Shown here: piece after piece, positions 1,883-2,370 of the stretch | Position numbering within the stretch: position 1 is the first letter of the stretch | Layout of the letters: each line of letters opens with the position of its first letter | Program-made: the position numbers and the translations under genes | Notes under the pieces: generated by a model | Databases searched by the model: none | Seen by the model: the letters and a program-made list of their open reading frames with translations, nothing else | What the model was told of the DNA's origin: nothing | NCBI RefSeq assembly: GCF_029227855.1 | Contig: NZ_CP074356.1 | Strand: one strand, 5' to 3' | Origin: Escherichia coli | GTDB lineage: Bacteria; Pseudomonadota; Gammaproteobacteria; Enterobacterales; Enterobacteriaceae | DNA length: 64,000 nucleotides

Positions 1883-1918
1883 TGCCTTTTAAGAAACACA
1901 ATACGATGACATCAATTT

Positions 1919-2314
1919 ATGACGTCAGGGATTGATAAGATGATGAAAACGCGTTTATTAATATCTCAAGCATCGAACATTATCACCATTAAAGGTCAAC
2001 CAGCCGCAGTGACATTTGAAGCCGATATCAACGCATTTCGCGGCAAATTTCTCAATGTAAATGGTTATTGCGACTTTGTAGCGACAAGCATTGAGGCGTT
2101 ATACCGGGAAGGTGAAAGTGCGCTGGATGAGTGGATGGCGGATTGTGAAGAGGACGGCATTGCCCCTTTTCGTGAAGAAGAGCAAAAACGCCTGACGCTT
2201 CGTGTTCCTCATCACATCGATTCACGACTGACCATTGTCGCCAGACAACATTCCATTTCAAAAAATCAGCTCATTGTTGATGTATTAGAACGTGAGTTTT
2301 CATCCCAGATGTAA
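1919..2314 (+). CDS. hypothetical protein with C-terminal ribbon-helix-helix-like segment (HicB-like antitoxin architecture?)
   Basis: 131-aa ORF; C-terminus KRLTLRVPHHIDSRLTIVARQHSISKNQLIVDVLEREF resembles RHH DNA-binding antitoxins; no partner toxin ORF seen nearby. Confidence 0.45.
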   Translation: MTSGIDKMMKTRLLISQASNIITIKGQPAAVTFEADINAFRGKFLNVNGYCDFVATSIEALYREGESALDEWMADCEEDGIAPFREEEQKRLTLRVPHHIDSRLTIVARQHSISKNQLIVDVLEREFSSQM

Positions 2315-2370
2315 ACAGGTCGGATGCCGTGTGGCATCCGATTTTTTTCCTGATCGTCAGTATTCTCCGT

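What the first reader, a model, noticed from the sequence alone, without database searches (positions are those of the whole stretch)
1883..2370. Orphan ribbon-helix-helix ORF between lfhA and yafL
A 131-aa plus-strand ORF with an RHH-like C-terminus occupies the spacer between lfhA and yafL. From memory, K-12 has the REP-associated tyrosine transposase gene rayT (yafM) here, on the opposite strand. No partner toxin gene is visible, so this would be an orphan antitoxin-like regulator or part of a degraded toxin-antitoxin pair.
Basis: partly seen in the sequence, partly recalled or inferred. Interest (0 to 1): 0.4.

Follow-up and report, generated by a model that had tools for sequence, protein, structure and literature searches.

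The report
HicB antitoxin gene that lost hicA
The ORF is a real, already annotated E. coli gene for a HicB antitoxin whose partner toxin gene hicA was removed by a 250-bp deletion, which makes it an ordinary remnant of a known toxin-antitoxin pair.

Summary
A plus-strand ORF (1919-2314, 131 aa from the first ATG) fills the lfhA-yafL spacer and ends in a ribbon-helix-helix (RHH) domain. It is a HicB-family antitoxin: Pfam PF05534 scores E=1.6e-10, and the AlphaFold model (pLDDT 90.7) has an N-domain matching solved HicB structures plus a C-terminal RHH.

RefSeq annotates this gene at this position in 1479 of 5426 complete E. coli genomes. In 1371 of them a 92-aa hicA toxin gene lies directly upstream. 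That hicAB-versus-rayT polymorphism at yafL-fhiA was published in 2012.

The window carries the rarer allele, found in 108 genomes. A 250-bp deletion removed hicA from codon 10 to hicB codon 3. This fused hicA's Shine-Dalgarno sequence, start codon (ATG 1940) and nine codons in frame to hicB, giving 124 aa.

A putative -10 box and a pair of ATGACRTCA operator-like sites are retained. The same sites occur upstream of hicA in Leclercia and on a Salmonella plasmid. No hicA-like sequence is in the window, and no junction-bearing genome carries this hicA type.

The differences among alleles are mostly synonymous, so the orphan still looks constrained, although recombination weakens that inference.

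Novelty and interest are low.

The parts
5..1882 (+). 3' 1.9 kb of lfhA (Flag-2 FlhA homologue), the upstream neighbour. It is not part of the module, but no terminator separates it from hicB.
   Evidence: ORF. Annotated as flagellar biosynthesis protein FlhA in the 100%-identical strain JNEC-KY178.
1879..1884 (+). Putative -35 hexamer TTGATG, overlapping the lfhA stop codon (inferred).
   Evidence: It lies 17 nt upstream of TACGAT. In hicAB alleles a TTGACG that overlaps an operator site sits at the equivalent distance from the same TACGAT. The pair scores below the threshold of the consensus scan.
1902..1907 (+). Putative -10 hexamer TACGAT (inferred).
   Evidence: Conserved in the window and in the O103/N96 hicAB alleles. 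TACAAT occupies the same place on Salmonella plasmid pLG25p1.
1906..1927 (+). Operator-like pair ATGACATCA-N4-ATGACGTCA (13-bp period; TGACGTCA is a palindrome). This is the presumed binding site of the RHH domain.
   Evidence: It is the only such pair in the 64-kb window at up to 3 substitutions. The single motif occurs 5 times against 0.9 expected. A pair with the same spacing precedes hicA in E. coli O103, and a matching ATGACGTCA pair precedes hicA on Salmonella pLG25p1. Leclercia has TGACGTCA-type sites upstream of hicA, including one directly before the Shine-Dalgarno sequence.
1927..1931 (+). Shine-Dalgarno-like AGGGA, 8 nt before ATG 1940. In hicAB alleles this is the ribosome-binding site of hicA.
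   Evidence: Sequence; alignment to hicAB alleles.
1940..1967 (+). Leader derived from the first about 9 codons of hicA (MMKTRLLIS). The deletion junction lies between 1967 and 1968.
   Evidence: In alignments A1, A4 and A5 the ATG aligns with the hicA start codon of the O103 and N96 alleles, and homology to their hicB resumes at 1968. The leader keeps the HicA N-terminal pattern M-x-K-x-R-x-L-x-S. AF2 gives it low confidence (pLDDT 55).
1940..2314 (+). Probable hicB coding sequence: 124 aa plus stop. It is an in-frame hicA(1-9)-Q-hicB(4-end) fusion.
1919..2314 (+). The extra 7 codons lie in the operator/5'UTR region.
2317..2351 (+). Intrinsic-terminator-like hairpin (12-bp stem, 4-nt loop) followed by a T run. 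It sits between the convergent hicB and yafL genes.
   Evidence: The scan found one site against 0.6 expected. The hairpin is conserved in the hicAB alleles.
2371..3120 (-). yafL (C40/NlpC-P60 peptidase), the convergent downstream neighbour. It is not part of the module.
   Evidence: and the annotation of the identical locus.

Best explanation
The ORF is the antitoxin half of a classical hicAB toxin-antitoxin operon of the kind in which HicB carries a C-terminal RHH DNA-binding domain. Many E. coli carry this operon between lfhA and yafL in place of K-12's rayT/REP cassette. In the lineage of this window a single 250-bp deletion removed hicA from codon 10 through hicB codon 3. Because the two genes overlap in different frames, the deletion put hicB in frame behind hicA's ribosome-binding site, start codon (ATG 1940) and first nine codons. 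Shown here: the homology, the deletion junction, the two-domain HicB fold, the absence of hicA, and the retained -10 box and operator-like pair. Inferred: the 124-aa protein is still made and dimerises through its RHH domain. It would then bind the ATGACRTCA pair between the -10 box and the ribosome-binding site and repress its own transcription. With no cognate HicA in the cell, it has nothing to neutralise. It is a solitary, self-regulating antitoxin that persists because toxin-first decay is the only viable order of loss. It still appears to be under purifying selection.
Against: There is no expression, DNA-binding or neutralisation data for this protein. The sigma-70 scan found no promoter on the + strand above its threshold, and my -35/-10 proposal scores only 8/12. 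The allele has lost the upstream operator pair and the native -35 region of the hicAB promoter, through an indel of about 47-59 bp. One retained site is imperfect (TGACATCA). The 28 nt after the start codon are only about 54% identical to E. coli hicA alleles, so their derivation from hicA rests on position and a residue pattern, and no parental allele with this leader was found. The polymorphism pattern among hicB-only alleles is mosaic. Some variation may therefore have been imported by recombination from alleles that still had hicA, which weakens the post-deletion selection argument. Only three distinct hicB-only alleles were compared.
Confidence: 0.85

Rival explanations
1. The gene is a functionless remnant. 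After hicA was lost, hicB had no role left and is simply drifting towards decay. It looks intact only because the deletion is recent or because recombination keeps re-importing good copies.
For: There is no cognate toxin. Part of the native promoter/operator region is lost. The allele is rare, in 108/5426 genomes. Mosaic polymorphism shows recombination in this interval. Independent hicA losses with hicB left behind are seen elsewhere: IS1 in ZH177, a 46-aa truncated hicA in Leclercia L007, and a stop plus frameshift in L019. This is the usual route of toxin-antitoxin decay.
Against: All sampled copies are intact. Variants private to the hicB-only class split 12 synonymous to 4 non-synonymous (P=1e-5). 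The alleles differ by dS 0.08-0.16 among themselves, which is not a very recent event. No E. coli hicAB allele is closer than about 93.4% to the window's hicB, so they are poor donors for its private variants.
Confidence: 0.3
2. The gene acts as an anti-addiction or immunity factor. The solitary chromosomal HicB would be retained because it neutralises HicA from incoming hicAB modules on plasmids, phages or recombined chromosomal DNA. That would let the cell lose or resist such elements.
For: Homologous hicAB pairs are mobile: at a different locus next to higBA in Leclercia, on a Salmonella IncFII plasmid beside ccdAB, and at this very locus in a quarter of E. coli. There are signs of purifying selection. 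The idea is established for orphan antitoxins in general (discussion in PMC7192599).
Against: There is no direct test. The plasmid HicB is only 57% identical, so cross-neutralisation is uncertain. True plasmid copies of close relatives were not found; the 95-97% 'plasmid' hits are records of 0.4-4.9 Mb.
Confidence: 0.15
3. The gene is a co-opted transcription factor. The RHH protein would now regulate other genes, for example the neighbouring Flag-2 lateral-flagellar cluster or yafL.
For: It has an intact DNA-binding domain. It lies directly downstream of lfhA with no terminator between, so it could be co-transcribed with Flag-2 genes.
Against: The paired operator occurs only at its own promoter within the 64-kb window. 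The hicB-only allele occurs both with an intact Flag-2 flank and with the K-12-type Flag-2 deletion. hicAB alleles likewise occur with both. There is therefore no association.
Confidence: 0.05
4. The ORF is a chance ORF or mis-annotation in an intergenic spacer, and the real feature is a rayT/REP remnant on the other strand.
For: K-12 has rayT and REP elements at this position.
Against: There is no similarity to the K-12 rayT cassette beyond the ends of lfhA and yafL. The ORF has a Pfam hit above threshold, a high-confidence fold, cross-genus homologues and synonymous-biased variation. Rfam finds nothing.
Confidence: 0.01

Closest known systems
E. coli hicA-hicB cassette between yafL and fhiA/lfhA (e.g. 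strain IAI1; Ton-Hoang et al. 2012, PMC3333891)
   Same: It occupies the same chromosomal slot with the same flanking genes. Its hicB is 93% identical in DNA and 97-98% identical in protein. It shares the same -10 box, proximal operator pair, Shine-Dalgarno sequence, start codon and terminator hairpin.
   Different: The window allele lacks 250 bp (hicA codon 10 to hicB codon 3) and about 47-59 bp of upstream operator/-35 DNA. Its hicB is translated from the hicA start with a 9-residue foreign leader. I did not find this allele described in that paper or in any other paper I read or searched.
RHH-type HicAB modules with solved structures (Burkholderia pseudomallei HicAB 6g26/6g1n; Yersinia pestis HicA3B3 4p78/4p7d); 'Class 4' of Gerdes 2023 (10.1101/2023.12.08.570793)
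   Same: [quoted passage not shown] These are the best structural matches. Palindromic operator-like sites lie in the promoter.
   Different: Sequence identity is only 10-16%, and no sequence-level PDB hit was found for the single protein. The sister-allele HicA is 92 aa with an N-terminal extension. The window has no toxin at all.
E. coli K-12 HicAB (hicA/yncN-hicB/ydcQ; 6hpb)
   Different: [quoted passage not shown] It is at a different locus and is not detectably similar in sequence.
Orphan (solitary) antitoxins, as catalogued in Klebsiella pneumoniae (Horesh et al. 2020, PMC7192599)
   Same: It is an antitoxin gene found in the original genetic context without its toxin. The same hypotheses apply: remnant, anti-addiction factor or co-opted regulator.
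   Different: Here the exact deletion that made the orphan can be read from the sequence, and the deletion re-used the toxin's translation start.
rayT (yafM) REPtron of K-12
   Same: It occupies the same spacer between lfhA and yafL.
   Different: It is unrelated in sequence, on the opposite strand, and flanked by REP/BIME elements. The two cassettes are alternatives with break points at the gene ends.

Membership tests
HicB antitoxin, RHH type (Class 4 hicAB) | Sequence match to the HicB family model | tested here: met
   Pfam PF05534 at E=1.6e-10, 41.1 bits against a cutoff of 21. The model covers only the C-terminal 50 residues. There is no NCBIfam hit.
HicB antitoxin, RHH type (Class 4 hicAB) | [quoted passage not shown] | tested here: met
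HicB antitoxin, RHH type (Class 4 hicAB) | C-terminal ribbon-helix-helix DNA-binding domain | tested here: met
HicB antitoxin, RHH type (Class 4 hicAB) | Encoded in a bicistronic operon directly downstream of hicA | tested here: not met
   There is no hicA in the spacer or anywhere in the window. The feature is met in orthologous alleles of 1371 E. coli genomes, in Leclercia and on a Salmonella plasmid. The window gene is therefore a HicB by descent and fold, but it is not part of a working hicAB module.
HicB antitoxin, RHH type (Class 4 hicAB) | Palindromic operators in its own promoter, bound by HicB | tested here: inconclusive
   Conserved TGACGTCA-type sites are present at 1906-1927 and in relatives from three genera. 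Binding itself cannot be tested with these tools.
HicB antitoxin, RHH type (Class 4 hicAB) | Neutralises a HicA RNase toxin | not testable with these tools
   This needs co-expression or rescue assays.
Orphan (solitary) antitoxin | No cognate toxin gene adjacent or elsewhere in the genome | tested here: met
   No toxin is adjacent, and none is in the 64-kb window. Genome counts of 1479 with hicB, 1371 with hicA and 108 with the junction add up exactly, so junction-bearing genomes lack this hicA type. Distant HicA paralogues elsewhere in the genome, such as the K-12-type hicA, were not examined.
rayT / REPtron | Y1 (HUH) transposase gene flanked by REP/BIME | tested here: not met
   Alignment with the K-12 interval shows homology only in the lfhA and yafL ends. 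No REP-like repeats are reported and Rfam gives no hit.

The most novel reading that the evidence does not exclude
The solitary HicB is not debris. It would be kept by selection, either as an immunity (anti-addiction) factor against HicA toxins arriving on plasmids, phages or by recombination from the many E. coli that carry hicAB at this same locus, or as an RHH regulator with new targets. The in-frame capture of hicA's translation start would then be the event that made a toxin-free, still-expressed antitoxin possible.
Probability: 0.2. Interest if true: 0.35.

Novelty: already known. Interest (0 to 1): 0.15.

Why it matters
It matters little beyond correct annotation. The gene is named in RefSeq, and the hicAB-versus-rayT alternation at this locus has been in the literature since 2012.

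Three modest points come out of the work:
- The window's allele is a clean natural example of toxin-first decay. A single deletion re-used the toxin's start codon to keep the antitoxin expressed.
- The PGAP start (an ATA codon) is probably wrong, and the first ATG is also probably wrong.
- About 2% of complete E. coli genomes carry a toxin-free HicB that still looks constrained. This gives a convenient natural system for testing whether orphan antitoxins protect against related incoming toxins.

Tried and rejected
- **Single-sequence PDB search.** It gave only a spurious importin hit (E=0.13). The family profile and fold searches were needed instead.
- **NCBIfam.** It has no model for this HicB or its HicA. 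HicA also has no PDB sequence hit.
- **Rfam scan of 1700-3500.** Only two chance-level hits, both far below the gathering scores.
- **Consensus promoter scan.** No + strand promoter upstream of the gene. My -35/-10 proposal comes from cross-allele alignment only.
- **Search for a parental hicAB allele with the window's 5' leader.** The leader/junction sequence exists only in the 108 hicB-only genomes. Metagenomic relatives P0010/L017 are of the O103 type, and L019 has its own decayed hicA. P0013 was not on record.
- **rayT remnant on the opposite strand.** Rejected by alignment with K-12.
- **Link between the hicB-only state and Flag-2 presence.** Rejected, because both hic states occur with and without the Flag-2 deletion.
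- **dinJ-yafQ remnant next door.** Rejected by tblastn and blastn.
- **Not done.** I did not run the genome contigs or metagenome scans, or a HicA structure prediction, because the identification did not depend on them.

Full report
**What is there.** The spacer between the end of the lfhA ORF (1882) and the stop of the convergent yafL gene (2371) holds one substantial ORF. It runs from 1919 to 2314 on the + strand and is 131 aa from the first ATG. The other ORFs overlapping it are short and lie in other frames.

Its product matches Pfam PF05534 (HicB family) over residues 74-123 at E=1.6e-10, which is 41.1 bits against a gathering score of 21.

K-12 MG1655 does carry rayT between yafL and lfhA on the other strand. 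Alignment shows the two spacers are unrelated cassettes that swap exactly at the ends of lfhA and yafL.

**It is an annotated, widespread gene.** Megablast of 1700-2600 against 5426 complete E. coli genomes finds the full interval in 1477 genomes. Every listed match is annotated as 'type II toxin-antitoxin system HicB family antitoxin', flanked by FlhA and yafL.

The ORF alone is found once per genome in 1479 genomes. Only about 107 of these match over the full length at 95% identity or more. The other 1372 match at 90-95% identity starting from query base 50 (window 1968), and they carry an annotated HicA family toxin gene directly upstream.

The hicA DNA of strain O103:H2 FWSEC0007 occurs in 1371 genomes, once each. 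A 100-bp probe across the window's lfhA-hicB junction occurs in exactly 108 genomes at 97-100% identity, and all of them lack hicA. Since 1371 + 108 = 1479, no genome with the window's junction carries this type of hicA anywhere.

Ton-Hoang et al. [quoted passage not shown]

**How the window's allele arose.** Aligned with the hicAB allele (A1; A4; A5), the window lacks 250 bp. The missing stretch runs from hicA codon 10 to hicB codon 3.

In the intact operon, hicB's ATG overlaps hicA's stop (ATGAATAA) in a different frame. The deletion compensates for that frame difference. The result is one ORF: hicA's ATG (window 1940), nine leader codons (MMKTRLLIS), a hybrid CAA codon, and then hicB from Ala4.

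The junction lies between 1967 and 1968. Upstream, the window keeps several parts of the hicAB control region:
- the TACGAT hexamer at 1902-1907
- the pair ATGACATCA-N4-ATGACGTCA at 1906-1927
- an AGGGA Shine-Dalgarno-like sequence at 1927-1931, 8 nt before ATG 1940

It has lost about 47-59 bp that hold a second pair of such sites and the TTGACG -35 hexamer in the hicAB alleles. A TTGATG that overlaps the lfhA stop now sits at the same 17-nt distance from TACGAT.

PGAP's start is an ATA codon at 1961. ATG 1940 is the best candidate for the real start.

There is one caveat. The 28 nt after ATG 1940 are only about half identical to the E. coli hicA alleles. They keep the HicA N-terminal pattern M-x-K-x-R-x-L-x-S seen across relatives. 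I found no intact hicAB allele with this leader.

**The protein.** A full-library search found 303 relatives at E<=1e-3. With a 60-sequence alignment (A2), AlphaFold2 gives mean pLDDT 90.7. The model has four strands (14-17, 20-27, 32-37, 45-48), a long helix (51-72), and then two helices (91-103, 108-123) after an extended segment. The leader is disordered, with pLDDT 55.

Structure searches point to HicB for the N-domain and RHH proteins for the C-domain:

| Search | Target | Score |
|---|---|---|
| Foldseek | B. pseudomallei HicB 6g26 | probability 1.00, E=3.8e-3 |
| Foldseek | E. coli HicB3 6u0i, Y. pestis HicB3 4p7d/4p78, TTHA0281, E. coli HicB 6hpb | next-ranked hits |

The family profile also hits AmrZ, CopG, Arc, Mnt and MazE7 at sequence level. 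This is the architecture that Gerdes calls Class 4: hicAB with an RHH-type HicB. In that class the N-domain blocks HicA and the C-domain represses the operon at palindromic operators (10.1101/2023.12.08.570793).

**Operators.** ATGACRTCA occurs five times in the window against 0.9 expected. The 13-bp-spaced pair occurs only at 1906-1927, even when three substitutions are allowed.

The Salmonella IncFII plasmid pLG25p1 (HicB 57% identical) has four TGACGTCA sites upstream of hicA: two around the -35 and two between TACAAT and the ribosome-binding site. Leclercia (HicB 66% identical, at an unrelated locus beside higBA) also has several TGACGTCA-type sites upstream of hicA. One overlaps TTGACG at the -35 position and one lies directly before the ribosome-binding site.

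Conservation of these sites across three genera, while the surrounding DNA differs, is good indirect evidence that they are the HicB operators. Binding itself is inferred, not shown.

**Is the orphan still constrained?** Nei-Gojobori counts are given below.

| Comparison | Synonymous | Non-synonymous | dS | dN/dS |
|---|---|---|---|---|
| Window vs hicAB alleles | 19-21 | 2-3 | 0.30-0.34 | 0.02-0.03 |
| Among three hicB-only alleles (window, 7/2, WG5) | 6-11 | 1-4 | 0.08-0.16 | 0.05-0.12 |

I then counted only variants that are polymorphic within the hicB-only class and absent from the four hicAB alleles sampled. These split 12 synonymous to 4 non-synonymous (table). The binomial probability under neutrality is 1e-5.

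There are three caveats. The site pattern is mosaic: 7/2 resembles the hicAB alleles in the 3' third, and WG5 does in parts of the 5' half, so recombination is active here. Only three distinct orphan alleles were compared. The whole lfhA-yafL block of this strain is unusually divergent, at 93-95% identity to other E. coli against 98% for dpaA-yafJ.

Against wholesale import of variation, no E. coli hicAB allele is more than about 93.4% identical to the window's hicB. I take constraint as likely but not proven.

**Toxin-first decay is recurrent in this family.** Three other cases keep hicB while hicA is damaged:
- An IS1 insertion removes the 5' third of hicA in strain ZH177.
- A Leclercia metagenome contig has hicA cut to 46 aa (L007).
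- A relative with 81% HicB identity has a stop and a frameshift in hicA (L019).

This fits the general logic that a toxin can be lost safely while its antitoxin cannot. It also fits the abundance of orphan antitoxins reported in Klebsiella (PMC7192599).

**Verdict.** It is already named in RefSeq, and the locus polymorphism is published.

What I did not find described is the exact nature of this rarer allele: an in-frame hicA'-'hicB deletion fusion that keeps hicA's translation signals and the proximal operators. A second point is the likely mis-called start codon.

Most likely the protein is still made and represses its own promoter with no toxin to neutralise. Whether it is retained for a purpose, such as immunity to incoming HicA or new regulatory targets, is open and modestly interesting. 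Nothing on the opposite strand, no RNA family and no rayT remnant competes with this reading.

Noticed in passing
window 3049-3280 (between yafL and dpaA/yafK): The dinJ-yafQ toxin-antitoxin pair that K-12 and O103 carry here is absent. 232 bp in the window replace 838 bp of the O103 allele, including the 5' end of yafL, and no remnant is detectable. This dinJ-yafQ-less haplotype is common, in 2084/5426 genomes including ST131. The strain therefore lacks both toxins that other E. coli carry around yafL.
   Followed up: partly
window 1-169 and 5-1882 (lfhA): The window extends past the end point of the K-12-type Flag-2 deletion, because homology to deleted strains begins at 170. It therefore comes from a Flag-2-bearing haplotype. 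In the 100%-identical strain JNEC-KY178, lfhA is full length but the adjacent flhB is annotated as frameshifted.
   Followed up: partly
window 170-3048 vs 3281-4997: The lfhA-hicB-yafL block is 93-95% identical to other E. coli, while the adjacent dpaA-yafJ block is about 98% identical. Only 3 of 5426 genomes are 99% identical or more over 1700-2600. This is a locally divergent, recombining haplotype.
   Followed up: partly
L003 3723-4001 (hicA of the sister allele; not in the window): The partner toxin of this subfamily is 92 aa with an N-terminal extension of about 28 aa. It only just passes the Pfam HicA_toxin threshold (30.4 against 27 bits) and has no NCBIfam or PDB sequence hit. By eye it reads GSRRKF where, from my memory of K-12 HicA, GSNH holds the catalytic histidine. 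Whether this HicA subfamily uses a different catalytic residue was not tested.
   Followed up: no
L015 1788-2679; L007 3730-3870; L019 270-710: There are three further independent inactivations of hicA with hicB left intact: an IS1 insertion in E. coli ZH177, a truncation to 46 aa in a Leclercia metagenome contig, and a stop codon plus frameshift in a relative with 81% HicB identity.
   Followed up: partly
window 1961-1963: RefSeq/PGAP starts the hicB-only protein (WP_097420904.1, 117 aa, 'MSQASN...') at an ATA codon. This is apparently forced by homology to the hicAB-type HicB N-terminus. ATG 1940, with a Shine-Dalgarno sequence 8 nt upstream, is more plausible.
   Followed up: yes
window 2171-2179: A 3-bp GAA indel lies in the Glu-rich linker between the two HicB domains. 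The window and strain 7/2 read REEEQK, while WG5 and all hicAB alleles read REEEEQK.
   Followed up: no
window 1946-1955: The hicA-derived leader contains a perfect 10-bp palindrome, AAACGCGTTT, that is absent from the hicAB alleles. It may be a chance feature or a trace of how the deletion or repair happened.
   Followed up: no
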